A DNA stretch of 64,000 nucleotides from Dictyostelium discoideum (GCA_000004695.1 CM000155.2:3296001-3360000), one strand, 5' to 3'. Shown: positions 6,440-41,072, counted from the first letter of the stretch. Translations and numbers: made by a program. The notes: generated by a model not told the origin, from the sequence alone.

Positions 6440-6572
6440 TCTACTATTACAAAATTTATATTAAACACACACAATTGAATGTGTGGTAAAATATATTAAA
6501 AAAAAAAAAAATTTTTTTTTTTTTCTTTTTTGTTAATCTTTTATTATTATACAAAAGTTATTAATAAATGAA

Positions 6573-6623
<51 letters not shown>

Positions 6624-7028
6624 AAAAAAACTAAAATTTTTTTCCGAACCAAATAAAAAATTAAAATGGAATAAAAAAAAATAAAAAAAATTAAAATTTT
6701 TTTGTTTTAAAAAAAAAAAAAAGGAAAAAAAAAAAAAAAAAAAAAACTGATTGGCGTTAACGCTATTTTTTTTATAAAAAATTGATTTAAAAAAAAAAAA
6801 AAAAAAAAATGAGTATGAATTTGATGACTTTTTTTATCTTTTTATGCCAACAAGATATTTGACTTTTTTTATCTTTTTTTAAAAAAAAAAAAAATTAAAA
6901 TAAATAAATAAAAAAAAGAAACTTAATGGTTATAATAAAAAAATAAATAAGTAATAAAAATAATTTTTTTTTTTTTTTTTTTTTTTTGTTATTTGATTTT
7001 ACATTTCTAATTTTATTTTTTAATTTAT

Positions 7029-7168
7029 TTATTCATTATTTGTATTACCTTCTTGAGTTGCGATAGTTGAAGTTGTTGTTGTAGTTGTAGTAGTATTTGA
7101 ATCACTAACATTCATATTTTCATCAGTATTATTATTATTATTATTATTTAAATTATTATCATTATTAC

Positions 7169-7213
<45 letters not shown>

Positions 7214-14893: not shown

Positions 14894-16411
14894 TTAATTT
14901 TTAATTTTAAAAATTTTATTATAAAAATAATCAGCAGTAAAATTATTTAATAAATTAACATTACCAAAATGAATTATTAATTTATCTAATGATTTTGGTA
15001 AATTAATTTGATATAACTGATGAGAATATTTTGAATTTTTAATTTCTAATATTTTTAAAGAATTTGGAAGTACATCTTTACCAATTGGTTTATCAAATGT
15101 AATACCTAATTGTAATGATGTCAAAGTCGGTGGTAAATCAGCAGGTTTAATATACTGATTGAAATTATCCAATACCAATGATTCCAATGAGGTACAATCC
15201 AATGAATCCTTAATAATTGATAAATTATCATTAAAACCACCCAAATTTAAATGTTTTAATGATTTTGGTAATGTATTTATTGGAATCACATTTTTAAATT
15301 GTTTACCAAATTCTAAAGATACCAAATTCGTATGCAAGAATAAAGCAGACATCGAGGAAGTGGAAAGCGGTGGATTGAAATTATCACCAAATTTGAGGCA
15401 AGTCAATGACGAGGGTAGCATTGCGGCGGTCAAACTTTGGTTAAACTCCAATCCAAATTCTAAATTGGTTAAATTTGGTGGTAGTACACATAGCTGGAAA
15501 TCACCATTCAAAGGTTGATTAAACTTGCTTCCAAATTTAATGGAGCCAAGCGAGGCTGGTAAAGAGCCTGCTTTAATTTCACGATTAAAAATTTGATTAA
15601 ATTCAATTGTTTCAACATTGTGTGGTATGTAACCCTCTTTAATAATGGCATTAAATGTTGGACTAAAGCTTAAATTTATCGTTGAGATTGGTATTGGGAT
15701 ATTTAAATTCAAGCTTGCAATATAGTTCAAATCTTTCACTTTACTTGGAATTGAGCCTGGCACTATAACACCCTTATATTGGCTACTTAGATGTAAATTC
15801 TCCAATGTTTCAGGTAAAATATTTTTATTTATAGTTTGTTGAAATGAAATTCCAAATTTTAAAAATTTAATTTTACTTGGTAACCAACCACCATCTAATG
15901 ATTGATTAAATAATTCACCAAATTCTAAACTTGTGACTGAATCTAATAATTTAACATTATCCATAACTTCATTAAATTTATCATTGAAAATAATAGATTT
16001 AATTGAATATGGGAATATACTATTACTTTCTTGTTCTTTATCGTTATTTACTACTAGTAATTCTGATAATTTCATTGATGTTGGTGTTGGCGTTGGTGTT
16101 GGCGTTGGTGATGTTGGTGATGTTGGCGGTGTAGTGGTGGTGCCACTTTTATTTAATTCTTTTACAATTACATTATTTAGTTTTAAATCTGAATCTTCTT
16201 CATAATTTACAAATATTAAATTTTCAATATAACTTTTGTATTTATATGTTGAATATTGATCTATTGTCATTTTCATTGTGGTGTGAACATTAAATAATCT
16301 TGTGTGAAATAATATTTTATTTAAAATTATTTCATTCCTCCAACAATTAAAAAATAATTCACAATTACTATTACTTGTTGATGATGATGATGATGTTGTT
16401 GTTTTAATCAT
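14894..16411 (-). CDS. FNIP-repeat protein
   Basis: Multiple about 22-aa repeats of the LP.SL..L.FG..FNQ.L type (FGSKFNQPLNGD, LEFGLEFNQSLT, LKFGDNFNPPL). The N-terminus ELFFNCWRNEIILNKIL is typical of the Dictyostelium FNIP family. 505 aa, single exon. Confidence 0.8.
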   Translation of the reverse strand: MIKTTTSSSSSTSNSNCELFFNCWRNEIILNKILFHTRLFNVHTTMKMTIDQYSTYKYKSYIENLIFVNYEEDSDLKLNNVIVKELNKSGTTTTPPTSPTSPTPTPTPTPTSMKLSELLVVNNDKEQESNSIFPYSIKSIIFNDKFNEVMDNVKLLDSVTSLEFGELFNQSLDGGWLPSKIKFLKFGISFQQTINKNILPETLENLHLSSQYKGVIVPGSIPSKVKDLNYIASLNLNIPIPISTINLSFSPTFNAIIKEGYIPHNVETIEFNQIFNREIKAGSLPASLGSIKFGSKFNQPLNGDFQLCVLPPNLTNLEFGLEFNQSLTAAMLPSSLTCLKFGDNFNPPLSTSSMSALFLHTNLVSLEFGKQFKNVIPINTLPKSLKHLNLGGFNDNLSIIKDSLDCTSLESLVLDNFNQYIKPADLPPTLTSLQLGITFDKPIGKDVLPNSLKILEIKNSKYSHQLYQINLPKSLDKLIIHFGNVNLLNNFTADYFYNKIFKIKN

Positions 16412-20473: not shown

Positions 20474-20935
20474 GTGGAAAATGGAAAATGGAAGATCATT
20501 ATATTTATAAAAATGGAAATAATTGGAAAAAAGATTAAAATAATTAAGAAAAAAAAAAAAAAAAAAAAAATCAAATCAAATCAAATCAATTTTCATAAAA
20601 TTGAAAAATTAGAATTTTCACCAGAACAACCAATTGCAGGGAAAGATTTAATAGTTTCAGTATCAGGATATTTAAATAAAGAAATTACAAAAGGTGAAGC
20701 ATATTTAGCAATTACATTTGATAGAATACCAATTTTAAAATTAAAAGGTAATTTATGTAATGGTATGGGTGTTACTTGTCCAACTCCACAAGGTAATTAT
20801 TCAACAACAACTATTAATCAAGAAATACCTGAAAATGTTCCACAAGGCTATTACTATGTTAATTTTGTATTATATGATCAAGATGATCTGCAAATCACTT
20901 GTGTTGATGTCCAAATGAATATTACACAATCATAA
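20474..20935 (+). CDS. ML (MD-2-related lipid-recognition, NPC2-like) domain protein; 5' end or signal-peptide exon not found
   Basis: The C-terminal 115 aa have ML-domain architecture with conserved Cys (LCNGMGVTCPTPQG ... ITCVDV). The N-terminal part of the ORF is poly-K low complexity and lacks a signal peptide. Confidence 0.45.
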   Translation: MENGKWKIIIFIKMEIIGKKIKIIKKKKKKKKIKSNQINFHKIEKLEFSPEQPIAGKDLIVSVSGYLNKEITKGEAYLAITFDRIPILKLKGNLCNGMGVTCPTPQGNYSTTTINQEIPENVPQGYYYVNFVLYDQDDLQITCVDVQMNITQS

Positions 20936-21139: not shown

Positions 21140-21657
21140 TCGCCTGGTACTGCAAATGACCATGAAGCAATCAATATTATCAATCATTTAATAACTAATC
21201 ACAATAACACATCATTCAATCAATTTACAAACTGGTCAAAAGTAAAATCAAAAATTATAAAAACTCTAAAAAACTATCAATATAACAAAGACAAACAAAC
21301 TCGACGTGCAAAACAAATACTATTAGAAAAAGCAGCAAAATTCAAACATCTTGAAGAACAATGCATCGCTGAATACAATATTATATGTAACAAAAACAAA
21401 CTACATCAAAACCACACAAACATATCAAAAAAACATATAAATGGAGAAATACCTAGCAAGTATCTATCAGCAATACTAAACAAAAGATCAAAAGATGCAA
21501 AAATTGAATCAATCCAATATGGTAACATCATTACATCCGACCCCGACCAAATTGAAGATGCGTTTGTTGAATTCTACACAAATCTATATAGCTTACAAAT
21601 ATGTTGTCCAATTACTCACCAGCTCATGCTAAACACATGGCCCATCATAAAAAATGA
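21140..21657 (+). mobile_element. internal ORF2 fragment of a TRE-like retroelement, truncated at the assembly gap
   Basis: An open frame without ATG (…IQYGNIITSDPDQIEDAFVEFYTNLYSLQ…) aligns with element-2 ORF2 residues about 330-390 (…ISDKENIAKRFVEFYQDQY…). It abuts the N run. Confidence 0.6.
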
Positions 21658-21757
21658 NNNNNNNNNNNNNNNNNNNNNNNNNNNNNNNNNNNNNNNNNNN
21701 NNNNNNNNNNNNNNNNNNNNNNNNNNNNNNNNNNNNNNNNNNNNNNNNNNNNNNNNN
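21658..21757. other. assembly gap (100 N)
   Basis: A run of exactly 100 n. Confidence 1.
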
Positions 21758-23033
21758 AAATAAATAAAAAAAATGGGAAAAGGGAAAATGATTTTTATTT
21801 AATTAAAAAATAATTTTTTAATAAATTTTATTTAATAACCGTCAATATATTAAAAAAAAAGAAAAAAAAAAAAAAGTAAAAATTTAAAAATAAAGTAATA
21901 GTTTAAAAAAAAGAGTATTTTTATTATTTCATTTTTTTTATTTAAAAATTTTACCAAAATAAAGTCAATGTGGTTGTTAAATTATATGAATATTAATTAA
22001 ATAATAATCGATTACTTTTGAATTTTTTTTTTTTTTTTAATCACTTTAATTTAAGCAATTTTTGTTTGCTTTTGGTCACTTAAAACAAATTAAATGATCA
22101 AAGAGAAGTTCCACTACAATGGTTCTGATATAATAAAAAAATATTGAAGCTAAGAGATCTTTTGGATTTTATTGACCATTTTAATTGGTTGATAAACAAT
22201 TGTTATTATTAATAATATTATTGTTATTATTTTCGTTTTTTCGATATTTCTTTAATTTTTAATTTTATTTTCACAAAGGGAACAAAATATAATAGTTTGA
22301 GCAAAAAATAAAAAAAAAAAAAAAAAAATTAAAAAAAAAAAAAAAAAAAAAAATTTGAATCCCAAACTTGAAAATTAAAAATTAAATAAAATAAAATAAA
22401 AAAAAAAAATGATCAAAAAAAAAATGATCAAAAAAAAAAAAAAAAATTAAAAAAAAAAAATTAAAATAATATTTTAATTTAAATCTCATACCACTAAAAA
22501 TAATTTAATAAATAAATAAAAATAAATTATAATATCAATTTTTTTTTTTTTTTTTTTTTTTGGGGGTTTTTTTTTGGGGTATTTTTTTTTTTAATTTTTT
22601 TTTTTTTTTGCACTACCTCTAAAAGTATTTGACAATCTTTTTAATATTATAATCTTTGTAGAAATTATTTATATATTTATTTATTTTCTTTTTTATTTTT
22701 CATTAACATATAAAAATCTTTTAATATTATTTAATTATTTATCTTAATGGGTAAGTTAACCACCTTAAACATTGATCGTTTTTACACAGAATATTTTTAT
22801 AAAAATAAAAAAAAAAATAAAAAAAAAAAAATAAAATAAAATAATAGATGGTTTTTTTTTTTTTTTTTTTTTTTTTTTATGATCAAACTAAATTTTATTT
22901 TTAAATATTAAAGAAAACAAAACCATTTAAACAAATAGTGAAAGTAAAGTCTTTTTTGCTAATTAATTTTTCTTTTTTCTTTTTCACAATTTAAGATCAG
23001 CATAAAAGCAAAGAGCAGGAAGTAATTAACAAT

Positions 23034-23215
23034 GAACCAGAGGATTTATTGTTAATAAGAACCTATGGTGACAATTCTAGTGCTCGATCATCAGGTCAAC
23101 TAAATATTCGAGATTCACCAAACAAGCCATTTAACTATCCTTATGTCATTCCACCAAAAAAAGACTTAATAGATTTATTACAAGAACAAGAGTTACAACC
23201 GCAACAAAAAGAACC

Positions 23216-23287
<72 letters not shown>

Positions 23288-23289
23288 GC

Positions 23290-23321
<32 letters not shown>

Positions 23322-24302
23322 GATCAACCACTACAACAACAACTACAACTACAACTACAACAACAACTACAACTACAACAACAACTACAACAACTACAAC
23401 TACGACTAAAAACACTACAATTACAACAACAACTACAACTACTACAACTACAACTACTACAACTACAACAACCACAACAACAACTACAACTACAACTACT
23501 ACAACTACAACAACTACAACAACAACTACAACTACAACTACAACTACTACAACAACAAAAAGCAAAAAAAGTTGATAAGGATTTGGAAATAATTGAGAAA
23601 TTTAAATCAGCAAATGAAAGTTCACTTTCAAAACAAGAAAAAACAGTAAAATTCTATCACAAAGGTACTCTTTACCAATATGGTTTTTCTCAAGAAACAT
23701 TTGATAAAACTATCGATGCCTCATTAAGTGAATTAATGATTAGCATAAATTGTAGATACATAGAGGTGATTGATAAAAATGAAAAAGGTAAAGGAAAAGT
23801 GATCCATGATTTAATTGGTCCAGCCGTATTCAATAATAAGGTAATTAATGACATAATCTTTGGTTTTTGTTACTACGATAAAGAGTTTCGAAATTGCCAA
23901 AAACATTGGTCATTAAGAATAATGGAGCATAGGACAAAATATCCAACAATTTTGAATATATCCATAACCATTTTACGTAACATCCAGGTTAGATGTAAAG
24001 ATATTTATGTAATTTTGGTAAATTTATTAATGGGTCATACTTTAGTCACTGGTTTGAAGTTATTTATTGATAAATTAGTCTCTTTTATCGATGGTCTCGG
24101 AAATAATAAAAAAGTAGAAATCTTTAAAATTGAAGATTTTGAAGAATTAATTCGATTATTCAAATTGGAGTATATGGATTATTCAATATCCATATATACA
24201 AGGGATTATTTTAAAGAATTAAAGAGATATATATATTTACTTCATCTCTTTTCAACCAATAAATTGTCAAATGAAAATGTGTTACCAATAACTCAAAACT
24301 AA
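23034..24302 (+). CDS. uncharacterised poly-Q protein, tandem family member A
   Basis: ATG at 23034 (the track start at 23049 is TTG). A (CAA)n run followed by a (CAACTA)n-type minisatellite encodes QQQ.../QLQLQ. The conserved C-terminal 230-aa domain is shared with copy B. A conserved upstream element cttaATGGGTAAGTTAA lies at 22747, but it is out of frame with the body in this copy. Confidence 0.6.
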
Positions 24303-25359
24303 ATAATAATATTCAACTTTACAAAATATATTAATAACATCACATCAAAATAGAATTGATTATCCTTGCTTTACCATCAACCCAATTTTAATGACTGTCC
24401 TCCCAAGCTTCAAACTATTGCTTGATATTATTTATATATAAACAATATTACAAACTTTTCTTATCAACTAATTTTAATTTATTAATCTTTTTTTTAAAAA
24501 AAAAAAAGAAAAAAGAAAAAAATTAAAAAATAATAAAAACTAAACCATATTTTTAAAATTTATAAAAAAAAATATATATATTTATTTATGTGTTCAGCAA
24601 GAATCTTTAAGTTCCTTTTTCCAAATTTATTTCTATCACAATTAAAAATTAAATCCAAAATAAAATAAAATAAAAATTAAAAAAAAAAAAAAAAATAAAA
24701 TCAACCATTTTCTTTTTTTTCTTTTCAATTGAACTTCAAAATTGCACAACAACAAGAATTTTTTAAAAAAAAAAAAAAAAAAAAATTTTAATTTAAAAAA
24801 ATATTTATAAAAGGAAAAAGCAAAAATAAAAAAAAAAAAAAAAAAATCACAAATAAAAACTAGAATCTACAATAATCACCACCACACTTCCCTTTTTAAT
24901 AAAAACAAAAAAAACAAAAAAAAAAAATGGAAAAAAAATATACATTTAAAAATAATTATTATTTTTAATTGTTTTCAAGATTTATAAATAAAACATCGGT
25001 TTTTTATATTTAAAGAAAAAAAATAAAAAAAAATAAAAATTAATTTAAGAAAAAAAAAAAAAATTTAAAATTAATTAAAAAAAAAAAAACTTTAATTTCA
25101 TCAATTTTATTTTTTAAAATAAAAATTTTTTTTTTTTTTTTGTTTTTGTGTTTTTTTTGAGAAATTTTTTTTTTTTTTTTTTTATTTTTAATTAGTTACC
25201 TTAGTTTATATTATTTATTTTTTCATATATTTTCTTTTTTTTTTTTTTTTCATATATTTTCTTTTTTTTTTTCATATATTTTCTTTTTTTTTTTTTTTCT
25301 AAACAAAAATCTTTGATATTATTTAATTATTTTTATAAACTGTATTTATCTTTATCTTA

Positions 25360-26131
25360 ATGGGTAAGTTAATCAATATAGTAAAATACTCACCACGTTT
25401 TTCATTTTTTTAAAAAAAAAATCTAAAAATTTTATAAGATCATAATAACATTGTTGATATCCTTACCAAAATGAGTAATTTTGTAAAAAAGAAAAAAAAA
25501 AATAAAATAATAAAAATAATAAATAATAAAAAAATAAAATTAAGTTCATAAATGCATTCATCACCTCCCGTTTATAAAAAAATAAAAAATAAAAAAAAAA
25601 AAAAAAATTTATCCAAATTTTTTATTTTATTTTATTTTACTTTATTTTTGAAGACCAAACATATTAATTGTTTGAAAATCTAAAAATAAATATGGTATTT
25701 TATTTATTTTTTATTTTTACAATTTTTTTTTTTTTTTTTCTAATTTTTTTTTTTTTTTAAATAACATCGACGAGGATTTAAAAATTATAAAGAAAATAAA
25801 ACCATATAAATAAACGGTGAAAGCAATGTTTAATTAATTTAATTTTTATTTTCTTTTTTTTTTTTCTACAAATTTAATAAAGATAAACAAGACCATGATA
25901 AAAGTGAGGGGTGGAAAGTCATCAACAATGCACCTAATTTGGTGAAAGTTTTAAATTCCTATGGTCACAATTCTTGTGCTCAATCATCAGGTCAAAAAAG
26001 AGAAATTCCAGTTTCATCATCAGATGAGCAGTATAATTTTCCAACTAAAGAAGAATTTCTTATCAATTTAATACAACAACATCCCCAACAACAAGAACAA
26101 CCTCATCAACAACAACAAGAACAACCTCATC

Positions 26132-26190
<59 letters not shown>

Positions 26191-26940
26191 ATAGAAAAAG
26201 TTGATAGGGATTTGGCAATAATTAAGGAAATTGAATCAGCAAATGAAAGCTCACTTTTAAAACTAGAAAAAAAAACAGTAGCAATCTATTTCAAAACCTC
26301 TATTTACAAATTTGAATTTTCTCATGAAACATTAGATAAAACTATTAATGTCTTATTAGGAGAATTAATGGTTAGCAGAAATTGTAAATATATAGAGGTG
26401 ATTGACAAAAATGAAAAAGAAAAGAGAAATGTGATCCATGATTTAATTGGTCCTGCCGTATTCAAGAATATGGTAATTAGAGAGATCATTTTAAGATTTT
26501 ATTTTCATAAAAGAGAGTTAGAAATTTGTGAACAAGATTGGTCATCAAGTATAGTACTATATAAAACAATGAATGAACATAAAACAATTTTGGATATTTT
26601 AATACAGATTTTACATAACATCCAGCTTAGATGTGAAGTTATTTATGAAGGTTTACAGGTCGATCATCCTTTAGCCCTTGGCTTAGGCTCATTCATAGAA
26701 AAATTAAATCCATATATCAATGGCCTCAGAAATAATAATGAAGAAGTGGAAATCTTTAATTCTAATGATTTTAAAGAATTAATTGAATCATTCAAATTCG
26801 AGTATATAAATTTATCAAAATCTGAAAATTCATGTGCTAAACAATTAATGATGGATTATTTTAAAGAGTCAAAGAGATATTTATTTTTATTTTATTTCTT
26901 TACAATCAATAAAGATCAAATCAAAATGAGTTATCAATAA
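25360..26940 (+). CDS. uncharacterised poly-Q protein, tandem family member B, with 4-nt first exon
   Basis: Model: join(25360..25363, 25883..26940). The first exon is ATG-G, followed by GTAAGT at 25364. The acceptor is ttaataaag| at 25882. The resulting in-frame N-terminus is MDKQDHDKSEGWKVINNAPNLVKVL. There is no other in-frame ATG before residue about 150. The upstream 150 bp is conserved with copy A. Confidence 0.55.
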
Positions 26941-27134
26941 CTCAAAACCTAATAACAATTAATATTATAAAAAAAAAATAATAAAACTCAACTTTACAAA
27001 ATAAAATAATACCTTTTATAAAAAATTAAATAAAAATAAAATAAATAAAAAAAAAAAAATAAAATAAAATAAAATAAAATAAAATAAAATAAAATAAAAG
27101 ATAATTAATAATTTCATTAAGATAATTTTATTTA

Positions 27135-27355
27135 AATATATAAAAAACTATTAATATAATATTATTCTAAAAACCTCAAAATTATTTATTTATTTTATTT
27201 AAAATGAAAAACAAAATAGTTGGTGGTTGTGTGTAAGAAATAATTAAATTGAGCTGCACAAAACAAAATAATAATTTTGAGGTTTTTAGTATAATAGTTA
27301 CAAAAAATTTCTTGATTATAATATTATATTAATAGTTTTTTATATATTTAAATAA
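27135..27355. repeat. MITE-like long inverted repeat (about 50-75 bp arms around a 90-bp core)
   Basis: Left arm 27137-27184 (aaatatataaaaaactattaatataatattattctaaaaacctcaaaattatt) is the reverse complement of right-arm segments 27275-27355 (aataattttgaggtttttag ... ataatattatattaatagttttttatatattt). The right arm carries a 28-bp insertion. Confidence 0.55.
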
Positions 27356-27760
27356 AATTATCAAGTGTCGAGGTATTTCCTTATGTTATCCCACAAAATT
27401 AATAAATAAAATAAAAGAAGTGTGATTGACCAAAATAATAAAAAAAAAGGCTATAGCACAAAAAATAAAAAAGGCTTTAGCACAAAAAAAAAAAAAAAAA
27501 AAAAAAAAAAACCCCTTTTCACCAGTTAAAAATAATTATTTTTTTTTTTTTTTTTTTTTTTAATTTTTTGATCGGAAATTAAAAATAATCAATTTCACTT
27601 TTTTTTTTAATTTCTCCCCTATTATTTTTTTTTTTTAATATTTTTTTTTTTATTTTTTTTTTTTTCAACACAAAACACCTACAAAGAATCTTTATTATTA
27701 TATACCTATTTTTATTATATTTTTTTTTTTTTATTTTAAGCGATACACTATAAAAATATT

Positions 27761-27804
<44 letters not shown>

Positions 27805-27857
27805 ACTATTTAACCATTTGTAAGATTTGTAAGTTTACAATATATATATATTATTTT

Positions 27858-28895
27858 ATGACCATTAATGTACTAACTAACAATCTATTAGCAAATCACA
27901 ACATAGATAAACTCAAAGCAATGTCAACCGATAATTTTGAAAAAATTAAAGGTAGACCAACCCAAAAAGAGGAGTGGCAATTAAAAGAATGGGAAAAGGA
28001 AAAAGATGAAAATAATAGACTTTTTCAAGAACAAAAACAAAAAACAACAAACAGAAAAGGTTGATTTGAATGGTGATTAGATCTAATTAATGAAATTATA
28101 GAAAGTGCAACTTCATTAACTCCAGCAACATTTGATAAAAAAGAAAAAGATAAGAGAAATATCGTCCGTATCTCACTCGGATCCATATTCAAAAGTAAGG
28201 TAATACTGAATAATATAAACAAGTTTTATAATAATCATAATTATGTAATATCTGGATAAAAATGCCAAACTTGTTTTATACATTATTCTATCAGGATATT
28301 CATTTACTGTTTTGTACATCTTTGACCAATATTGCTTGCAAATTTCAAATTCCTCATTATAACATCCAACTAAGGTGCCATGAGATTCACGCAAGCACAG
28401 AACATAATTTAGGGAAGAATCATCCTATAGTCTCAGGTTTTGATGCATTCATAGTTAAATTGGATTACTTTATAAATTGTCTCGCAAATGATAATTATGG
28501 AAAAGTTGAAATCTTTAGATTTGAAGATTATGAAGAATTGATTCAATCATTCAAATCTGGGTATATGGATTTATCTGGTAATTCAGAAAACGAGCAATTG
28601 ATGCATCACTTCAAAGAATCAAAGATACATATTCTTAGTCCATTTTATTTCAATGAACAAGGATCAAATCAAAATGAACCCAATTCCACTCAATCCACAA
28701 TCACCATCAGCATCACCACCAATCGGAGTAGAAACAGTGAAACTATTAGAAAATAATAAAATTTTTATTATTAATGGGAATCAAATAGATTTTGGTATTG
28801 ATGATTATGAAACAAATTTAAATTACACTAAATGCATTTACCAACAACCCTCAATACCATTGATAATCCTTGACCTGGATATCAACAAAATTTAA
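27858..28895 (+). pseudogene. degenerate third member (C) of the tandem poly-Q family
   Basis: Three frame-shifted ORF pieces (27858..28064, 28262..28756, 28653..28895) align to the conserved C-terminal domain of A and B: IQLRC...HP...G...F..KL...IN.L.N.....VEIF...D..ELI.SFK..Y.....S. Confidence 0.55.
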
Positions 28896-29551
28896 TTGCT
28901 ATCTGTTTCTCCATAAGTTTCCACAACAATTGACCATTCTTTCATATCAAATGATTTAACAATTCCAACTTCCAACTGTTGGCTGATAATAAAGAAAAAA
29001 AAAAAAAGAAACATGTCCAATTTGTAATATTAAAATATTAAAGTACCGAAAGGTTTTAGAAAAAAAAAAAAAAAAAAATTTGTATTACTACTACCTTTTT
29101 TAATAAAAGTTTATTTAGTTTTAAATTGTGAATTTTAATTTTATTTTATTTTATCTAAAAAAATTTAATTATTTAATTTTATTTTTTTATTATTTAATTA
29201 TTTTTAATAAGGAGGCCAACCATTTTTTTATATTGATCAATCAGTGTTTATTCATTAAAGGAAATAAACAATAGTTAATTTTTTATTTGTAAATTTTAAT
29301 TTTAAAATTAAAAAGATGTAAAGTAATTTTTTCTTTTTTAATTTATATAACTAAAGAATTTAATATTTTGAAATATAGTTGACAAAACTCGTATCACCTG
29401 GCTGTGAATTTTTCAATGTCATGATTCATCTCAAGGTTATTAATATTTTTATGGTATAGTATGATAATTAACACCACTTTTGCACCTTTATCAATTTTAA
29501 TTATGGTCTTTAACGAACCATTATCATCAAACAATCATTGAAAACATCAAT

Positions 29552-29633
29552 GACATCGTAGCGAAGTGGTCTAACGCGTTTGACTTGAAATCAAATCTCC
29601 TAGGAGGCGCAGGTTCGAACCCTGCCGATGTCG
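29552..29633 (+). tRNA. tRNA-Ser(UGA)
   Basis: Acceptor GACATCG/CGATGTC, discriminator G. Anticodon stem TTTGA/TCAAA with loop CTTGAAA (anticodon TGA). Long variable arm TCTCCTAGGAGGCG. T-arm CAGGG-TTCGAAC-CCTGC. Confidence 0.8.
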
Positions 29634-30080
29634 ACAATTTTAATGTTAATATTAATTAGATACCCGCTTTTTTTTGGCATCTTTATTTCTAACGACTAAA
29701 AAGACATTTCTCTTGGCATTTTGATAATAAAAAGCCTACAGTTGATCAAACGGATACTAGATACAGAAAAACATATCCATCATCAATCTAACATCAACTA
29801 CATCTATCTACTCTACACACTAATTCCTTCAATCCTTGGATTGGGAATAAGAATAGATCTGAATAAACGAGAAAGAAAAAAAAAAAAAAAAAAAATAAAA
29901 ATAAAAATCAAAAATATTTTTATATAAACACATAATTAAAAAAAAAATAATAAAAATAATATAAAAAAAAAAAAAAAAAAAAAAAAATGAATTTTTTCGA
30001 TAAACTTAAAGGTGAACTCAACTTAGGCGAAGAAGTTAAATAAAAAAACTATTCAAATAAGGTTATTCTACCCAAATACC

Positions 30081-30857
30081 TTGGAATTAAATAGTAATTC
30101 AACAAAATTAATAGATAATTTCATAGTTAATGGTACTCTTAACATTGTCAGAAGACAAAAGGGTATAACAGTATTCGGTAGAATACTAAAAGAAAAATTC
30201 ACATTATTACACGAGTGTTACAGCACTTTCAAGTATGAAGATTTCCCACTGCAAAAATTCATACTTTACACCCCAGGATATCACTATGTCCACTTTTACA
30301 CATTTACAAAAAACATAATAAAAAAAATAAACAATCAAATGGTAAAAGAAAACTGGGGATTGGAGCCATTACTAATAGATGAATGCAACATAGTAATGCT
30401 ACCAGATGTGATTAGATATTCATGCATACTATTATTTAATAAAGAAGATGATATCTCAATCATTAAAACAAACATTGATGCTATAAAAGGTAGTAAGCAT
30501 CCAATAAGAGCCTTCATCTCTGAATATAACAATAAAGAAATAAGAGATGTTAGAAAAAAAAAAAACACAAGTAATAAAAACCAACAACCAACAACTACAA
30601 ATACAACTAAATCAATACCATCAACTCCACCAACAACTAATGCATCAACAACCACACCAATAACAACCACACCAATAACAACCACACAAACAACAACCAC
30701 ACCAACAACAACCACACATCAATTACCAACAAGCAATACAACAATCTACAACCTAAACAAAACTACTACTACTACTACTACTACTACAAAACCTATCAAT
30801 AAAATTACTACAAGCAATGGTACCAAGTTTCCAATTGCCAGTAGTATTAGAAAATAA
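30081..30857 (+). CDS. retrotransposon ORF1 (Thr/Pro-rich C-terminus)
   Basis: 258 aa. Positioned immediately upstream of ORF2 and overlapping it at 30857. Confidence 0.65.
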   Translation: MELNSNSTKLIDNFIVNGTLNIVRRQKGITVFGRILKEKFTLLHECYSTFKYEDFPLQKFILYTPGYHYVHFYTFTKNIIKKINNQMVKENWGLEPLLIDECNIVMLPDVIRYSCILLFNKEDDISIIKTNIDAIKGSKHPIRAFISEYNNKEIRDVRKKKNTSNKNQQPTTTNTTKSIPSTPPTTNASTTTPITTTPITTTQTTTTPTTTTHQLPTSNTTIYNLNKTTTTTTTTTKPINKITTSNGTKFPIASSIRK

Positions 30858-33800
30858 TGGAACAATTAAAATTATTACTATGGAACTGCAGAGGTAATCA
30901 ATCAACCAACGCTAAGAATAAAACAGAAGAAACGATAAAAAGAATTGGCACTCAATTAGCACTCCTAACTGAAACTAATTTCAATGGATTCAACCACCAC
31001 AAAACAATGTTCAACTTTGAAAGAATAGATCATGGTTCAGGTAAAGGAACTGGCATAGCAATAGAAAATAGAGATACAAGAAAAGGCCACATATCAATAA
31101 ACTTCAAAGACGATGATGGTAGAATACTATCAATTAAATACAATTCCTTTAATTCTATCAACATATTATTGATCTATGCTCCAGCGACTATATCTGAAAG
31201 AAACACCTTCATAATCAACTCAAAATCACTGTTTAAAAAATATAATTCAATCAACCATCAAATAATAGCAGGCGACTTCAATAACAACCACGATTGCAAC
31301 AGCTTCTTCGGTACTGAATTACGTAAAATAATAGACCAAGACATGCTACTAGATACTGGTATTGAAGAAAACACTCCAACATTTCCAAGATCAATGAAGA
31401 GACTAGATAGAATCTACTGTCATCCAACACTACTAAACCAAAATTCAAAACTGGTAGTCCACAACACAGTATTTAACAAATCAGATCACTTTCCCATCAC
31501 AATCACAATACAAACCAACAGAGAAACAACAACAACAACAACAACCAAACTAGAAAGACTCCCTTGGACATTATGTAAAGAAATTCTCAACAACAAACAT
31601 ATACATGATGGGTTATCAGAATTAATCAGTAAGAACAAAGATAAGATCAAATCAGTGGAGGAATGGACGAAATTTAAAAATAATGTCATCAGAGATTATT
31701 TAAAAAAAGAACAAAACAAAATAAAGAAAGAAAAGAACAAAAGAAAATACGTAATCCACAAATTACTTGGAAATAGTGATATCATTCCAAAGATGAGAAA
31801 AGAACTCAATGAAGAAATAAGTAGAATATTAGAAGAAGAAAGAAAGGTAAAAGCATGGGATATCAAATTAAAACTCCACCTGCATCAAGAAACACCAAGC
31901 AAATACCTCACAAGTATCCTTAAATCCAGAGCCAAAGATAAATCAATATTCCAAATAAAAGATAAAGATAATAAGACCATATCAGATAAAGAGAACATAG
32001 CAAAAAGATTTGTTGAATTCTATCAAGATCAATATGAAGAGAAAGAAGATAACGAAGAAACCCACAAGAAGTTATTAGAAAAATGGGAAGTAGACGTTGA
32101 TTTAATCAAGAAACTCGAGATAGACAGACCGATAAGAATACATGAAGTGACCAAAGCAATCAAAACTTCAAGTATCCACAAATCTCCAGGTTTAGACGGT
32201 ATCAATGCACTATTCTACAAGTACCACATCAACTCAATAGCAAGAATATTGACTATAGCTTTCAACGACCTCCTCACAAATAAGAAAGAAATCCCCACAA
32301 AATTCAAAGAAGGAGTAATAACAACAATATTCAAAAAAGGAGATGAACTAAACATTTCAAATAGAAGACCAATCACCCTTCTCAATACAGATTACAAAAT
32401 TTTAAGCAAAATTCTCAACAGTAGATTATTAGATATCACCAGTAAAATTATCAACAAATTTCAAAACGGCTTTGTTCCAAACAGGTTCATCCAAGACAAT
32501 ATTCAGATCATGAAGGAAGTAATAGAAATAAGTAACAAAAGAAAGAACAATACACTCATTACCTTTTACGATTTTAACAAAGCATTCGATTCAATCAGCC
32601 ACAAGAGTATCACAAGAACATTAGAGCATATTGGTATCCCCCCAAAATTCACAGCGATCCTACTAAACCTACTCAAAGATACTAAAAACAAAATAAAGAT
32701 CAACGACTTTTTAGTCAATGGAATAACAATCAGAAGAGGAACAAAACAAGGAGACCCAATATCACCAACAATCTTTGCTCTAGTTTTAGAACCACTTCTA
32801 ATAGATATCATCAATGATAATACAATCAAAGGCTTCACTCTACCAAATTCCAAATCATTAAAACTCACTGCATTTGCTGACGACATAGCAACATTTACAA
32901 ACTCCACNGAAGAACTAATGAAAATTAATACTAAAATCCAAAAGTACTGCTCAGCAACATCATCATCGTTAAACAAAGAGAAAACAGTAATGATAGCAAT
33001 AGGAGATAAACCACACGATCTACCATTCCAAGAGAGTACAGTCCCAGAAAGATATCTTGGCCTCAATTTCACCAAAACAGGTTTAAATTCAAAATACAAC
33101 ACTTTAATCCAAGAAATGAAAAACAATCTAATCAAATGGAAATCACAAGCAATAACGATGAAGGCAAAGATGACAATTCTCAAAACATACGTTCTATCCA
33201 AATTAACATACCATCAATACATGGATAATCTAAATGAAGAACAAATTGAGGAAATCAATAACATGACCAGATGGTTCTTATTCTCCTCAGTTAAGAATAC
33301 ATATACAGAAGAGAGAAAATACAAAACTATGATGAAAATAGACAGAGCATATGCAGATTGGAAAGAAGGAGGCATAAAATTATGGGATATAGAACTAAGA
33401 CATATAGCATTCAAAATCTGGTACATGAACAGGCTACTCCATAACAACTACAACAACAACAACAATACCTTACAAGAATGGTACATGGAGCAATTAAGTA
33501 GAAAAAAAGCCCACACTTCAACCCTCAACGATATGTGCAGACACTGGGGTGTATTCAGAGTCAAATTTTACCAAAACCATCCAAAGATAAATGAACTTCC
33601 AGACTGTATAAGAAACGACAATGACGAACCACTAAAACTAAAAGAAATTTACGAACTCATGATCAAAGACAGACACCCAACACCAAGAAGAACAGAATGG
33701 CAGAAGTTATGGGCGGTGAGATACAACACAGCAATACCCAAAGTATTCATAAACATCAACAGCATTTCTCACCAAAAAGGTAGAAACACCCTCTTCAGAT

Positions 33801-34177
33801 TCTTCTCAAGATCACTTCCAGGTATCAACCACGAAAGAGACACCAGATGCAAGATCTGTGGCCACCTATTCAGAGACCCTTATTCTCACCTCTTCACTCT
33901 ATGCCAAGATATCCTAGATATTGAAAAAACCATCATATCAACAGTAAACAAATTATCATTCATCAAAATCCACAGATGGTCAATGGATACCTTAGACATA
34001 TCAAAATACAACAGAACTGAGAGAATCTTCCCCAATCTCATAGGAATAATAGCACACCAAAAGAGGAATTTGAGAGGAAATATTAAGGAAATGGAGGAAA
34101 TTAAAATTTTTCCTCTTATTCCTTCGTTTCCACGAATTCCTCTAAAAATTTCTTATAATGTACGGATAACCTTGTAG
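30857..34177 (+). CDS. retrotransposon ORF2: apurinic-type endonuclease plus reverse transcriptase plus C-terminal CCHC-like domain
   Basis: N-terminal LLLWNCRGN...ALLTETN (APE-type endonuclease). RT motifs include FADDIATFT (FADD). C-terminal CKICGHLF...HLFTLC. 1106 aa. One ambiguous base (n at 32908) gives X in the translation. Confidence 0.85.
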   Translation: MEQLKLLLWNCRGNQSTNAKNKTEETIKRIGTQLALLTETNFNGFNHHKTMFNFERIDHGSGKGTGIAIENRDTRKGHISINFKDDDGRILSIKYNSFNSINILLIYAPATISERNTFIINSKSLFKKYNSINHQIIAGDFNNNHDCNSFFGTELRKIIDQDMLLDTGIEENTPTFPRSMKRLDRIYCHPTLLNQNSKLVVHNTVFNKSDHFPITITIQTNRETTTTTTTKLERLPWTLCKEILNNKHIHDGLSELISKNKDKIKSVEEWTKFKNNVIRDYLKKEQNKIKKEKNKRKYVIHKLLGNSDIIPKMRKELNEEISRILEEERKVKAWDIKLKLHLHQETPSKYLTSILKSRAKDKSIFQIKDKDNKTISDKENIAKRFVEFYQDQYEEKEDNEETHKKLLEKWEVDVDLIKKLEIDRPIRIHEVTKAIKTSSIHKSPGLDGINALFYKYHINSIARILTIAFNDLLTNKKEIPTKFKEGVITTIFKKGDELNISNRRPITLLNTDYKILSKILNSRLLDITSKIINKFQNGFVPNRFIQDNIQIMKEVIEISNKRKNNTLITFYDFNKAFDSISHKSITRTLEHIGIPPKFTAILLNLLKDTKNKIKINDFLVNGITIRRGTKQGDPISPTIFALVLEPLLIDIINDNTIKGFTLPNSKSLKLTAFADDIATFTNSXEELMKINTKIQKYCSATSSSLNKEKTVMIAIGDKPHDLPFQESTVPERYLGLNFTKTGLNSKYNTLIQEMKNNLIKWKSQAITMKAKMTILKTYVLSKLTYHQYMDNLNEEQIEEINNMTRWFLFSSVKNTYTEERKYKTMMKIDRAYADWKEGGIKLWDIELRHIAFKIWYMNRLLHNNYNNNNNTLQEWYMEQLSRKKAHTSTLNDMCRHWGVFRVKFYQNHPKINELPDCIRNDNDEPLKLKEIYELMIKDRHPTPRRTEWQKLWAVRYNTAIPKVFININSISHQKGRNTLFRFFSRSLPGINHERDTRCKICGHLFRDPYSHLFTLCQDILDIEKTIISTVNKLSFIKIHRWSMDTLDISKYNRTERIFPNLIGIIAHQKRNLRGNIKEMEEIKIFPLIPSFPRIPLKISYNVRITL

Positions 34178-38533: not shown

Positions 38534-40766
38534 ATGAGTAATAAAACTTTACCATATTGTTGTGAACATGGATTAAAAGATGAAGTTATAGCATTATTAG
38601 CCAAAGGTGAAGATGTAAATCAAAAGGATGGTTCAAATAGATATCCACTTCATTATGCAGCAATTGGTGGATATATAGAGATAGTTGCAATGTTATTAGA
38701 GAGAGGAGCATTAGTAAATTGTTCAACACCACGTGGAGCAACACCACTTCACTATGCAAGTAGAGGTGGTCGTATCGAATGTATTCAATTACTCATTGAC
38801 AATAAAGCAGATGTAAATTGCAGAGATGGTGCAGGTAGTACACCACTTCATACAGCTTTACAATGCAATGAAACTAAATGCGCCATTGCACTAATTGAAA
38901 CCTTTGGTGCAGATGTAAACTTAAAAACCGCTGAAGGTTCAACTGCACTCCATTTAGCTTCTGCTAGAGGTTTAGTACCTGTCATTGTTGCTCTCTTGGA
39001 AAATGGTGCTAGAGCTGATGTTAGAGATTCAAAAGAAAATTCACCATTTCAATCTTTACCAATTAATTTAACTGAAAATGGTAAGTTTTTTAATTTAAAA
39101 AAAAAAAAAAAAAGAAAAAAAAATATATATATATATATATATATTATTTTTAAATAATATTAATCTTGAATAATTTTTTATTTATTTTTTATTATTAGAA
39201 AAAAAAGAAAAAATTGAAAATTCAATTTCTCAAGATATTTCAAAATTATTTAATATTAATAAAAATAGAGAATTTAGTGGTGTAGGAAAAAAAGAAGATG
39301 ATGATAATAATATGAAGATAGATAAACAAGAATCAGAACAACAATCAACATCAGATAAACTTTATTCAGATATAACATTTTTAATTGAAAATCAAAAAGT
39401 TTATGCACATAAATGTATATTACAAGCTAGATGTCCAAATTTTATGTCATCAATTAATAATAAAATAGAACAGCAACAATCACAAAAACCAATAGAAATT
39501 AAAGATTATTCATTTAAATTATTTTTATCATTCATCGAGTGGATATATACAGGATCAATTGAAAAGTTTGAATCAACATCAAAATCAATTGATTTATCAT
39601 TTCAATTTTCAATATTATTAATGGGTGAAAAGTTTGATTGTAAAGGATTAGTATCCTATTGTAGAGAGTTTATTAAGGAGAGCATTGGTGATAGTAATGT
39701 TGGTTCCATTTGGTCAATCATTAAAAAGTTACCAACTTCAACTCGTTCAAATTTAGGTAACCTCGTTCGTGATTGTTTAATTACAATGGTAAGGAGTTGG
39801 AACATTTTCACAATGACTAAAACTTTCTCAACTGATATCAATAAATCCGATATCATTGAAATCATTAAATCACTTGCTCCTTTCATTACCGAAACTCCAA
39901 TCTCTGAAATTAAACAGACTCGTACTGCAAATGCAAATGCTTCAAATTCAAATCAATCTAAAACTCCTGCAAAACGTACTTCAACTACTAATACCAATAA
40001 TAATATACCACAACAAAATATTACATCTTCAAATAATACACCACAACAAAATACATCATCATCATCATCATCATCGACAACTTCATCAACACCTTCAAAA
40101 TCATCATCATCAACACCTTCAAAATCAACCTCAACTTCATCATCATCATCTTCATCTTCATCATCATCATCATCATCATCATCAAATTATTCAGATTCAA
40201 TGAATGAAAAGAATTTAACATTTTGTAAAGGTTTAATAAATGGAATGTTTAAAAAGAAAACATCACTTGCATTCCAAAGACCAGTTGACCCATTGGCAGA
40301 AGGTATTCCAGATTATTTCGATGTTATTAAACATCCAATGGATTTAGGTACTATCAAGGGTAAATTGGATAATAATGGATATTCAACTATTAAAGATTTT
40401 GCAGCAGATGTTAGATTAATGTTTGAAAATGCATTAACTTATAATGCAGATTCATCACCAGTTTGGAAACATGCTAAAACATTACTCAATGCTTTCGATC
40501 AAAAGTTTTTACAAAATTTCCCAAATGAAAAACCTCCAACCTATAAACCACCACCACCAACCCCAACTCCAATCCCAACACAACAACAACAACAACAATC
40601 AACTTCTTCAACATCAACACCAACCTCTGAAAAAAAGAGAAAACATGATGAACATGTTAAAGTAAAAGAAGATACAAATTCTGCCCAACCAACTTCTTCA
40701 TCTTCAAATCATACAAATGGTGAAAATGCTTCATCTTCATCTTCATCATCATCTTCAAAACAATCA

Positions 40767-40798
<32 letters not shown>

Positions 40799-41072
40799 TA
40801 GTAATTCAACAACAAATTCATCTTCATCATCATCATCAACTACTACAACACAAAAGAAATACTCTGATGAAGAAAGAAGGAGTTTAATGGAAAGAATTAA
40901 TGAATTAGCTCCTGATGATGTTCAAGAGGTTTTAAATATTATCGATCCAAATGCAATCAAACAAGCTGATGAAAGTCTTGAAATCGATATGTATCAAATT
41001 GATGATAAAAATTTATCACAAGTTGAATCATTTATTAATGAATGTTTTAAAAAACAAAAACAAGATGAATAA
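38534..41072 (+). CDS. ankyrin-repeat / BTB-POZ / bromodomain / ET-domain protein
   Basis: Model: join(38534..39080, 39199..41072). Donor GTAAGT at 39081 (phase 1) and acceptor tattattag| at 39198. Exon 1 has five ankyrin repeats (G.TPLH.A...G). Exon 2 has BTB (ITFLIENQKVYAHKCILQARCPNF...FIEWIYTG), a bromodomain (DYFDVIKHPMDLGTIKGKL...YNADSSPVWKHA) and a C-terminal NET/ET-like segment (EERRSLMERINELAPDDVQEVLNII). Confidence 0.8.

What the first reader, a model, noticed from the sequence alone, without database searches (positions are those of the whole stretch)
22600..28900. Tandem array of three paralogs of an uncharacterised poly-Q family sharing a conserved ATG-G|GTAAGT micro-exon, with one copy frame-shifted and one pseudogenised
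Copies A (23034..24302) and B (25360..26940) share a conserved C-terminal domain of about 230 aa (KVDKDLEIIEKFKSANESSL...IQVRCKDIYV...VEIFKIEDFEELIRLFKLEYMD) and a conserved 150-bp upstream block ending in cttaATGGGTAAGTTAA. In B the 4-nt exon ATG-G splices in frame over a 519-nt intron to ...AT AAA CAA GAC..., giving MDKQDHDKSEGWKVINNAPNLVKVLNSYGH. B has no alternative in-frame ATG, so B needs this micro-exon. In A the homologous splice gives MDQHKSKEQEVINNEP and then terminates. A 2-nt deletion relative to B puts the body out of frame, and A must instead start at the internal ATG at 23034 (MNQDLLLIRTYGDNSS). Copy C (27858..28895) is broken into three frames. I do not recognise the family. 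It is duplicated together with its flanks (3' flank motif caactttacaaaat in both A and B).
Basis: seen in the sequence. Interest (0 to 1): 0.6.

Follow-up and report, generated by a model that had tools for sequence, protein, structure and literature searches.

The report
Dictyostelium orphan gene trio, split start
Three tandem copies of a fast-evolving gene family found only in Dictyostelium discoideum and close relatives: two copies are intact and have an intron right after ATG-G, and the third is a transcribed pseudogene broken by a small inversion, so this is ordinary gene-family turnover and the claimed frameshift in the first copy does not exist.

Summary
The window is D. discoideum AX4. 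The ORF at 28262-28756 is exactly DDB_G0293798.

**What holds up**
- The three paralogs and the shared ATGG|GTAAGT are real.
- The same ATGG followed by GTAAGT (GTAATT in one case) starts family copies in three related genomes. Five of those copies are annotated from that ATG.

**What does not hold up**
- Copy A is not frameshifted. Its intron is 22751-22995. Splicing there gives an open 436-aa protein, MDQHKSKEQEVINNEPEDLLLIRTYGDNSS…
- The "internal ATG" (23032-23034) is out of frame and hits a stop after seven codons.
- "Micro-exon" is a misnomer. It is the 4-nt coding end of a normal first exon.

**Copy C**
- C is a pseudogene.
- Its lesions are a premature stop, a 123-bp inversion (28241-28363) and a frameshift near 28650.
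- C is nevertheless transcribed. A 63-nt leader intron (27829-27891) is spliced out in assembled RNA contigs.
- The annotated 164-aa protein starts inside the inverted piece.

**The family**
- No Pfam, PDB or specific fold match.
- Only six representatives among 1.84 billion proteins, all from Dictyostelium.
- It evolves fast: dN/dS is 0.4-0.9, against 0.14 for a neighbouring gene.

Direct junction reads for A and B could not be obtained. Function is unknown.

The parts
22640..22746 (+). Copy A promoter and 5' leader block. It is shared with B and with the orthologues, and contains no ATG.
   Evidence: Alignments. No ATG in 22560-22746.
22747..22750 (+). Copy A start codon plus one base (ATG-G). 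This is the coding end of exon 1.
   Evidence: Conserved in L001 at 7721, where it is annotated as the gene start.
22751..22995 (+). Copy A intron: 245 nt, phase 1, GTAAGT…TTTAAG, 85% AT.
   Evidence: An in-frame TAA lies at 22992-22994, so the ORF cannot extend upstream of the acceptor.
22996..24302 (+). Copy A exon 2. With ATGG it encodes an intact 436-aa protein. It comprises an N-terminal region, a Q/L-rich tract (about 23217-23558) and the conserved domain (23568-24299).
   Evidence: A neutral simulation expects 11 premature stops; none is observed. All 5 indels against the L001 orthologue are multiples of 3.
24314..24327 (+). 3' flank motif CAACTTTACAAAAT of copy A.
   Evidence: Also found downstream of the A orthologues in L001 and L002.
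25300..25359 (+). Copy B 5' leader block, with no ATG. It is preceded by a triplicated CATATATTTTC(T)n unit at 25215-25300.
25360..25363 (+). Copy B start codon plus one base (ATG-G).
   Evidence: Orthologues P0001 and P0002 are annotated as starting MDKQDHDK….
25364..25882 (+). Copy B intron: 519 nt, phase 1. A second in-frame acceptor lies at 25891, 9 nt downstream, and is homologous to A's acceptor.
25883..26940 (+). Copy B exon 2. With ATGG it encodes an intact 353-aa protein. PolyQ lies at about 26083-26190 and the domain at 26197-26937.
   Evidence: dN/dS is 0.47-0.52 with the confidence interval below 1.
26989..27002 (+). 3' flank motif CAACTTTACAAAAT of copy B.
27799..27828 (+). Copy C non-coding exon 1. 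The 5' end is approximate. It lies just after a TATAAAAAT box and a 41-nt T run.
   Evidence: RNA contig L006 begins with 27810-27828 joined directly to 27892.
27829..27891 (+). Copy C 63-nt intron in the 5' leader (GTAAGT…TATTAG).
   Evidence: An exon-exon junction is seen in Logan contigs L006 (SRR24091724) and L008 (SRR24091723).
27892..28933 (+). Copy C pseudogene body. The first ATG of the spliced RNA is at 27921 (MSTDNF…). A premature stop lies at 28062-28064 in the reference, or at TAG 28078-28080 in the +A variant carried by all RNA contigs. A frameshift lies near 28650.
   Evidence: Orthologues L001 12007-12924 and L002 12953-13834 are intact ORFs starting MSTD.
28241..28363 (-). 123-bp segment of copy C that is inverted relative to the C orthologues and to paralog B. 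On the minus strand it encodes …EEFEICKQYWSKMYKTVNEYPDRIMYK….
   Evidence: blastn: L1C 176-308 and L2C 173-305 match 28363→28241, and B 26515-26618 matches 28352→28241. Protein-level support. Present in six independent read assemblies.
28262..28756 (+). The annotated gene DDB_G0293798 (Q54BA5, 164 aa). It is an internal ORF of the C pseudogene. Its ATG and first 33 codons or so lie in the inverted segment.
   Evidence: Exact identity to P0006 / XP_628945.1. Six ATGs precede it in the spliced RNA.

Best explanation
The region is a birth-and-death tandem array of a young gene family. The family is restricted to the Dictyostelium discoideum species complex plus D. dimigraforme.

Copies A and B are intact protein-coding genes. 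In each, transcription starts in a short AT-rich leader that contains no ATG. The first AUG is followed by a single G and then a consensus GTAAGT donor. A phase-1 intron (245 nt in A, 519 nt in B) must be removed to join ATG-G to the body, giving Met-Asp-… Full-length protein (436 aa and 353 aa) therefore depends on splicing.

If the intron is retained, my reading of the sequence is that only a short peptide results (MGKL…, about 31 codons in A and 17 in B).

The proteins have a weakly conserved N-terminal region, a highly variable polyQ or Q/L tract, and a domain of about 245 aa. The domain is predicted to be a small alpha/beta unit followed by a helical bundle, with no known relatives. It evolves quickly but is kept open by selection.

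Copy C lost function in the AX4 lineage through a premature stop, a 123-bp inversion and a frameshift. Its promoter and its 63-nt leader intron still work, so it is a transcribed, spliced pseudogene. The database protein DDB_G0293798 is an artefactual internal ORF of that pseudogene.

Shown by tool results:
- the gene structures and reading frames;
- conservation of the ATGG start followed by GTAAGT (GTAATT in one copy) at eight family copies across four genomes;
- the lesions in C;
- splicing of C's intron;
- the evolutionary rates.

Inferred, not shown:
- that A and B are actually spliced and translated in AX4;
- the transcription start sites;
- that the Q-rich tract and helical bundle mediate self-association or protein binding in a soluble intracellular protein. 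The N-terminus is hydrophilic, and I saw no long hydrophobic stretch by inspection.
For: Frames and splice sites of A and B:
- One search gives the frames. ATGGGTAAGT occurs twice against 0.07 expected.
- Neither ORF has an in-frame ATG before mid-domain, and A's frame is closed by TAA at the acceptor.
- No upstream ATG lies within at least 185 nt of either start.
- The introns are 85-86% AT and the exons 71-72% AT.

Conservation of the split start:
- It is present at L001 7721 and 10001, L002 7433 and 10001, and L010 3957 and 8253 (the last with donor GTAATT).
- Independent annotations start five of these gene models there, at L001 7721 and 10001, L002 10001, and L010 3957 and 8253. The products begin MDQHKSKEQ… or MDKQDHDK….

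Selection:
- A compared with its L001 orthologue has 146 substitutions. A neutral simulation gives a mean of 11 premature stops, and 0 of 20,000 simulated sequences stay open. All 5 indels are in frame.
- dN/dS is 0.93 for A, 0.47-0.52 for B and 0.64 for C (L1-L2), against 0.14 for a neighbouring FNIP-repeat gene at the same dS of about 0.12.

Family size and similarity:
- Only 6 representatives among 1.84 billion proteins, all Dictyostelium.
- No Pfam match and no PDB sequence match.

Copy C:
- Inversion and stop.
- Confirmed in six independent read assemblies.
- Exon-exon junction 27828|27892.
- Identity to DDB_G0293798.
Against: - No RNA read or contig spanning the A or B junction could be retrieved. 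The look-up tool refuses partial products, and one guess at a 3' fragment of B found nothing.
- No A- or B-derived protein from AX4, or from the RNA assemblies that contain C, appeared in the protein searches. A and B may therefore be weakly expressed, or unannotated in AX4. Those searches also missed known positives: the L001 A model and the P0001 N-terminus. The negative result is therefore weak.
- A's dN/dS confidence interval (0.57-1.52) includes 1.
- TATA-like sequences lie only 26-38 nt upstream of the ATG, so the leader could be very short. This is my reading.
- The structural model is of low confidence, so the fold description is tentative.
Confidence: 0.8

Rival explanations
1. Copy A carries a 2-nt frameshift relative to B, so the ATGG splice product terminates early, and A is translated from an internal ATG at 23034.
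For: If the intron is taken as 22751-22997, the product does terminate after 3 residues.
Against: - 22996-22997 reads AT, not AG. The AG ends at 22995, and that splice is fully in frame for 436 codons.
- The ATG at 23032-23034 is out of frame and reads MNQRIYC**.
- The difference from B at this boundary is a 14-nt indel at the intron/exon boundary.
- The L001 orthologue is annotated with the same in-frame splice.
Confidence: 0.02
2. A and B are decaying pseudogenes that have lost their start codons. On this view the ATGG|GTAAGT match is a relic, or a coincidence of duplicated flanks.
For: - A's dN/dS is about 0.9 and is not distinguishable from 1.
- No AX4 protein entry for A or B was found.
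- The sister copy C is a pseudogene.
- The array lies in a region rich in transposable elements and next to an assembly gap.
Against: - Under neutrality A should have accumulated about 11 stops since its split from the L001 lineage. It has none, and all its indels are in frame.
- B's dN/dS is significantly below 1.
- Six A/B-type ORFs in three genomes are all open.
- The start and donor are conserved at eight copies across four genomes.
Confidence: 0.07
3. Only the C-terminal half is translated, from the conserved internal Met (23736 in A, 26368 in B). On this view the upstream ORF, including polyQ, is an untranslated leader, and the ATGG is irrelevant or acts as a short regulatory uORF.
For: - The internal Met is conserved between A and B (…ELM(I/V)S…).
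- The unspliced RNA would encode only a short MGKL… peptide from the ATGG (my reading).
Against: - The frame upstream of the internal Met is open for 245 codons in A and 161 in B, in a 77% AT genome where I estimate a stop about every 11 random codons.
- That upstream region is conserved at the protein level between paralogs (37-40% identity, E=6e-08) and between orthologues (dN/dS 0.4-0.6).
- The most conserved motif of the family, YIEVIDKNEK.K..VIHDLIGPAVF, lies just after that Met. However, the alpha/beta unit predicted upstream of it would be cut off.
Confidence: 0.06
4. Copy C is a functional gene that encodes the annotated 164-aa protein DDB_G0293798, or another short product.
For: - C is annotated in AX4.
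- The locus is transcribed and its leader intron is spliced.
- The C orthologues in two related genomes are intact ORFs of 293 and 305 aa.
Against: - The 164-aa ORF starts inside the inverted segment, so about its first 33 residues are antisense-derived.
- Six ATGs precede it in the spliced RNA. The first opens the ancestral frame and stops after 47 codons.
- The C-terminal part is frameshifted relative to the orthologues.
Confidence: 0.08

Closest known systems
Start-codon introns (Nielsen & Wernersson 2006, BMC Genomics 7:256, PMC1626468)
   Same: The intron lies immediately next to the initiator codon, so the first exon contributes essentially only the AUG to the protein. The intron position is conserved among paralogs and orthologues.
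   Different: The described class is phase 0 (ATG|GT), is enriched in ribosomal proteins, and consists of short, highly conserved proteins. Here the intron is phase 1, after ATG-G. The proteins are lineage-specific, Q-rich and fast-evolving. Dictyostelium was not in that study (0 mentions).
Taxonomically restricted ('orphan') tandem gene families evolving by birth and death
   Same: - Very narrow taxonomic range.
- Tandem duplication together with flanks.
- Elevated dN/dS.
- Chimeric, truncated and pseudogenised members: the L002 A/B chimera, P0003, and the domain deletion in L1C/L2C.
   Different: Nothing distinguishes this array from the general pattern. No function or phenotype is attached to it.
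Transcribed unitary pseudogenes mis-annotated as short hypothetical proteins
   Same: Copy C keeps its promoter, splicing and polyadenylation. Its coding frame is destroyed. A residual internal ORF is deposited as the protein DDB_G0293798.
   Different: One of the disabling lesions is a small intragenic inversion (123 bp) with palindromic AT-rich junctions, in addition to point lesions.
[not shown]
   Same: The C-terminal ~120 residues of the domain are predicted as an up-down helical bundle.
   Different: Sequence identity is 5-16%. The hits cover only the helices and are functionally heterogeneous. Foldseek finds nothing with E < 0.26. The model has low confidence (pLDDT 63). This is a shape resemblance, not evidence of relatedness.

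Membership tests
Any Pfam-A family | hmmscan score above the family's gathering threshold | tested here: not met
   A and B give only sub-threshold hits, the strongest driven by the low-complexity N-terminal/polyQ part (best 21.6 bits against a cut-off of 36.2). The L001 C orthologue, P0005 and P0007 match no family.
Any protein with a solved structure | Sequence-profile match to a PDB chain, or a specific fold match | tested here: not met
   [not shown]
Start-codon-intron genes (sensu Nielsen & Wernersson) | Phase 0 intron directly between codon 1 (ATG) and codon 2 | tested here: not met
   The intron follows ATG-G, so it is phase 1, one base later. It works in the same way, since the start codon is separated from the body, but it falls outside the strict definition.
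Start-codon-intron genes (sensu Nielsen & Wernersson) | Short, lysine-rich, evolutionarily conserved proteins, often ribosomal | tested here: not met
   The proteins are 353-436 aa, Q-rich, have dN/dS of 0.4-0.9, and are restricted to a few Dictyostelium genomes.
Spliceosomal GT-AG intron (A and B) | Consensus donor and acceptor, pyrimidine-rich 3' end, frame restored only by removal, position conserved in homologues | tested here: met
   The introns read GTAAGT…(T-rich)…AAG and are 85-86% AT. In-frame products arise only after removal. The position is conserved at eight copies across four genomes.
Spliceosomal GT-AG intron (A and B) | Observed exon-exon junction in RNA | not testable with these tools
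No RNA read access is available. Only C's junction was observed.
Pseudogene (copy C) | Disabling lesions relative to intact homologues, confirmed not to be assembly errors | tested here: met
   The lesions are a premature stop, a 123-bp inversion and a frameshift relative to L1C/L2C and B. The same structure appears in six independent read assemblies at 99.5-99.8% identity.

The most novel reading that the evidence does not exclude
A and B could belong to a conflict-driven family, for example one involved in social cheating or recognition, or in defence against pathogens. On this reading their near-neutral average dN/dS hides diversifying selection on the domain. The obligatory intron after ATG-G would act as a splicing-dependent on/off switch: intron retention gives only a short MGKL… peptide. 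If AX4 truly lacks protein models for A and B, they would also be two overlooked genes in a reference genome.
Probability: 0.12. Interest if true: 0.5.

Novelty: new member of a known kind. Interest (0 to 1): 0.2.

Why it matters
The practical value is for annotation.
- Copies A and B are intact genes whose start codon can only be found by allowing a 4-nt coding first exon. Gene finders and ORF-based screens easily miss such a start.
- The one locus in the array known to carry a protein record in AX4 (DDB_G0293798) is an internal ORF of a transcribed pseudogene.
- The array is a compact example of how young gene families turn over in social amoebae. Within about 0.1-0.4 synonymous substitutions per site it shows duplication with flanks, a paralog chimera, a domain deletion, an intragenic inversion and a frame-shifted tail.

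The finding does not reveal a new mechanism.

Tried and rejected
**Direct RNA evidence for the A and B junctions**
- A guessed 3' fragment of B, with Q10 followed by the domain, was not on record.

**Whether AX4 annotates A and B**
- Exact look-ups were run on the spliced models, the alternative-acceptor model, the internal-Met models and the bacterial-style ORFs. All were absent.
- The control, the annotated L001 A model as I reconstructed it, was also absent. The result is therefore uninformative. Proteins with long polyQ may be filtered out of the collection.

**Homology search with the N-termini**
- The search with an alignment of the A and B N-termini returned nothing. It did not even return P0001, whose N-terminus is nearly identical to B's. 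That tool's negatives are unreliable for short queries.

**Other searches that gave nothing useful**
- The AFDB Foldseek library, which might have revealed UniProt entries for A and B, was unavailable.
- Fold searches gave only generic helical bundles.
- Literature searches for DDB_G0293798, for Dictyostelium start-proximal introns and for the new assemblies found nothing relevant.
- Rfam found only the tRNA in 21800-29800.

**Homology between C's leader intron and the A/B intron**
- The distal upstream block (AATCTTTGT…) aligns. The proximal part does not align convincingly. The idea that C's ATGG mutated to ATTT is left as a conjecture.

**Conserved intronic block**
- The shared intronic block (…GTGAAAG…) is about 79% identical between A and B. 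Given dS(A,B) of about 0.37, that is not clearly above the neutral expectation. I do not claim it as a regulatory element.

Full report
**Source and context**

The window has 23.5% G+C. It is Dictyostelium discoideum AX4: the ORF at 28262-28756 is identical to XP_628945.1 / Q54BA5 / DDB_G0293798, whose longest carrying contig is 3.60 Mb. My inference from that contig size is chromosome 6.

The array lies in a region rich in transposable elements.
- A 100-N assembly gap (21658-21757) lies about 1 kb upstream of copy A. My reading of the ORF fragment just before the gap is that it derives from a retroelement; it has no Pfam match.
- A tRNA-Ser gene lies downstream of copy C, followed by a non-LTR retrotransposon.

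**Checking the observation: copies A and B**

ATGGGTAAGT occurs exactly twice in 64 kb, against 0.07 expected by chance. The two sites are 22747 and 25360.

- ATG-G (25360-25363) is joined over a 519-nt GTAAGT…AAAG intron to 25883.
- The product is an open 353-aa protein, MDKQDHDKSEGWKVINN….

- The acceptor AG ends at 22995. Joining 22750 to 22996 gives an uninterrupted 436-aa protein, MDQHKSKEQEVINNEPEDLLLIRTYGDNSS….
That is the origin of the "frameshift".
- The "internal ATG at 23034" is really at 23032-23034. It is out of frame and stops after 7 codons.
- In the nucleotide alignment, A differs from B at this boundary by a 14-nt indel that removes B's upstream acceptor.
- A uses the AG homologous to a second AG in B, at 25891. 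That AG is 9 nt downstream and also in frame, giving MDHDKSEGW….

Neither ORF has an in-frame ATG before the middle of the domain. The first are at 23736 in A and 26368 in B. A's frame is closed by a TAA that overlaps the acceptor. Both copies therefore need the ATGG equally.

No other ATG lies in the ≥185 nt upstream of either start. The ATGG would therefore be the first AUG met by a scanning ribosome.

The 4 nt are the coding end of a first exon that must also contain the 5' UTR. "Micro-exon" is therefore not the right term.

**Comparative support**

An exhaustive profile search of 1.84 billion representative proteins found six family members, all from Dictyostelium:
- D. discoideum-labelled assemblies;
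- D. cf. discoideum;
- D. dimigraforme.

Two syntenic loci carry A, B and C orthologues in the same order. They are L001 (GCA_054859385.1) and L002 (GCA_054859355.1).

The ATGG start is conserved at several sites:
- L001 7721 and 10001, with donor GTAAGT;
- L002 7433 and 10001, with donor GTAAGT;
- L010 (D. cf. discoideum) 3957, with donor GTAAGT;
- L010 8253, with donor GTAATT.

Those genomes' own annotations start five gene models exactly there, at L001 7721 and 10001, L002 10001, and L010 3957 and 8253. The L002 A-position gene is annotated from a different start. The L001 A model (423 aa) uses the same TTTAAG|ATCAGC acceptor as I infer for AX4 A.

**Are A and B under selection?**

| Comparison | dN/dS | 95% interval |
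|---|---|---|
| A vs L001 orthologue | 0.93 | 0.57-1.52 |
| B vs orthologues | 0.47-0.52 | upper limits 0.81-0.83 |
| C, L001 vs L002 | 0.64 | 0.38-1.16 |
| Neighbouring FNIP-repeat gene | 0.14 | 0.08-0.24 |

Synonymous divergence between AX4 and the two related genomes is about 0.11-0.14. That holds both for the family and for the neighbouring FNIP-repeat gene.

A is nevertheless not decaying.
- With the observed 146 substitutions, a neutral simulation gives a mean of 11 premature stops. None of 20,000 simulated sequences stayed open.
- All five indels against the L001 orthologue are multiples of three.

The A-B paralog pair has dS of only about 0.37 with dN of about 0.29. The 52% protein identity therefore reflects fast protein evolution after a fairly recent duplication, not great age.

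This also means the similarity of the flanks is roughly what a duplication of that age predicts. The flanks concerned are the upstream block, the intron ends and the 3' motif. They need not be strongly constrained.

**Copy C**

- Relative to the intact C orthologues (305 and 293 aa, starting MSTD) and to B, the AX4 segment 28241-28363 is inverted.
- The ancestral frame from ATG 27921 stops after 47 codons, at TGA 28062-28064.
- All six independent read assemblies carry an extra A at 28038. That moves the stop to TAG 28078-28080.
- The tail is frameshifted near 28650.
- The six Logan contigs are collinear with 27776-29078 at 99.5-99.8% identity. The inversion is therefore real and not a reference-assembly artefact.
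- Contig L006 starts with 27810-27828 joined directly to 27892. Contig L008 starts with the last 3 nt of that exon (TTT) joined to 27892. This is a GTAAGT…TAG junction that removes 63 nt. C is therefore transcribed and its leader intron is spliced.
- The annotated DDB_G0293798 ORF begins inside the inverted segment and follows six upstream ATGs in the spliced RNA. It is most likely an annotation artefact.
- The C lineage was already degenerate before the species split, in the following sense. L1C and L2C lack 133 nt that AX4 C shares with A and B (28108-28240). That segment covers C's diverged counterpart of the family's most conserved motif, YIEVIDKNEK.K..VIHDLIGPAVF.

**The protein**

- There is no Pfam match and no PDB sequence match.
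- The AlphaFold model built from a 4-sequence alignment has pLDDT 63. It shows helix-hairpin-helix-hairpin followed by about five helices.
- Foldseek returns nothing with E < 0.26.
- The N-terminus is hydrophilic, so a signal peptide looks unlikely. This is by inspection only.
- The Q or Q/L tract differs greatly between paralogs and between orthologues.
- My working inference is a soluble intracellular protein whose helical bundle and Q-rich tract mediate protein-protein contacts. This is inference only.

**Other signs of turnover in the family**

- The L002 copy at the A position has a B-like promoter and N-terminus (89% to B) and an A-like domain (72% to A).
- P0003 looks like a chimera of a C-type tail and a B-type C-terminal half.
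- By my reading, AX4 B has a 1-nt shift that changes its last ~11 codons.
- The L010 cluster holds at least four members.

**Comparison with what is known**

Introns adjacent to the start codon are a described, widespread phenomenon (PMC1626468). The strict class is phase 0 and is enriched in conserved ribosomal proteins. Here the intron is phase 1 and the proteins are orphans.

Within this same window there is another candidate ATG|GTAAGT start, at 39078. Start-proximal introns are therefore not exceptional in this genome.

Tandem orphan families with elevated dN/dS, and transcribed pseudogenes, are also familiar.

**What could not be settled**

- Direct junction evidence for A and B.
- Whether AX4 annotates A and B. 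Searches were all negative, but positive controls also failed.
- Function.

**Verdict**

The sequence features are real. The striking part of the interpretation, a frameshifted copy rescued by an internal ATG, is a misreading. What remains is an ordinary, young, fast-evolving tandem gene family. Its start codon is separated from the body by an intron, and one member is a transcribed pseudogene disabled by an inversion.

Interest is low (0.2). Novelty: new member of a known kind.

Noticed in passing
window 21140-21757: A 100-N assembly gap (21658-21757) lies about 1 kb upstream of copy A. It is immediately preceded by an ORF fragment that looks retroelement-derived (…GEIPSKYLSAILNKRSKDAKIESIQYGNIITSDPDQIEDAFVEFY…). 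The fragment has no Pfam hit.
   Followed up: partly
window 29551-34177: A tRNA-Ser(UGA) gene (29551-29635) is followed by a non-LTR retrotransposon. Its ORF1 is at 30081-30857 and its ORF2 at 30857-34177, with an endonuclease domain and a reverse transcriptase domain. The arrangement looks like a tRNA-gene-targeted (TRE-type) element.
   Followed up: partly
window 27121-27362: A 242-bp hairpin-like element lies between B and C. Its arms at 27121-27165 and 27318-27362 are 100% complementary. They are extended by arms at 27160-27196 and 27260-27296 that are 89% complementary. The element is unique in the window. The surrounding 27055-27519 has no counterpart in the related genomes, so it may be an AX4-lineage insertion.
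   Followed up: partly
L001 and L002 (GCA_054859385.1, GCA_054859355.1) against window 14894-16411: Both assemblies are labelled Dictyostelium discoideum, but they differ from AX4 by dS of about 0.11-0.13. This holds even in a conserved FNIP-repeat neighbour gene (dN/dS 0.14), measured against L002. That is far more than I would expect within one species.
   Followed up: partly
L002 7433-8993: The copy at the 'A' position in L002 is a chimera. Its promoter, ATGG start, intron end and N-terminus are B-like (89% to B's N-terminus). Its domain is A-like (72% to A). This suggests gene conversion or unequal crossover within the array. Its annotated model (6042-8993, 501 aa) uses a different start.
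   Followed up: partly
window 26905-26950: The last ~11 codons of AX4 B (…INKDQIKMSYQ*) are in a different frame from A and from the L002 B orthologue (…LSNQNELSITQN*), because of a 1-nt indel. The NKDQIKM reading is the one used by the C copies. The C-terminal tail appears to be unconstrained.
   Followed up: no
window 28038 and 28922: All six Logan read assemblies carry an extra A in the A-run at 28038 and C>A at 28922, relative to the window. These are either strain differences or errors in the reference sequence. The extra A changes which stop codon ends C's first ORF.
   Followed up: yes
window 39078-41072: Another candidate start-codon intron lies here. ATG|GTAAGT at 39078, with an intron to 39317, opens a 585-aa frame. 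That ORF also has its own ATG at 39312, so the model is uncertain.
   Followed up: no
window 20474-20935: A gene with an ML (MD-2-related lipid-recognition) domain (PF02221, E=1e-21) lies upstream of the array.
   Followed up: no
L010 1-9910 (D. cf. discoideum, GCA_054859235.1): A larger cluster of the family lies here, with at least four members. One is on the opposite strand. One is a divergent 234-aa single-exon member (P0007). One is a 99-aa fragment that still starts with ATGG|GTAAGT.
   Followed up: partly
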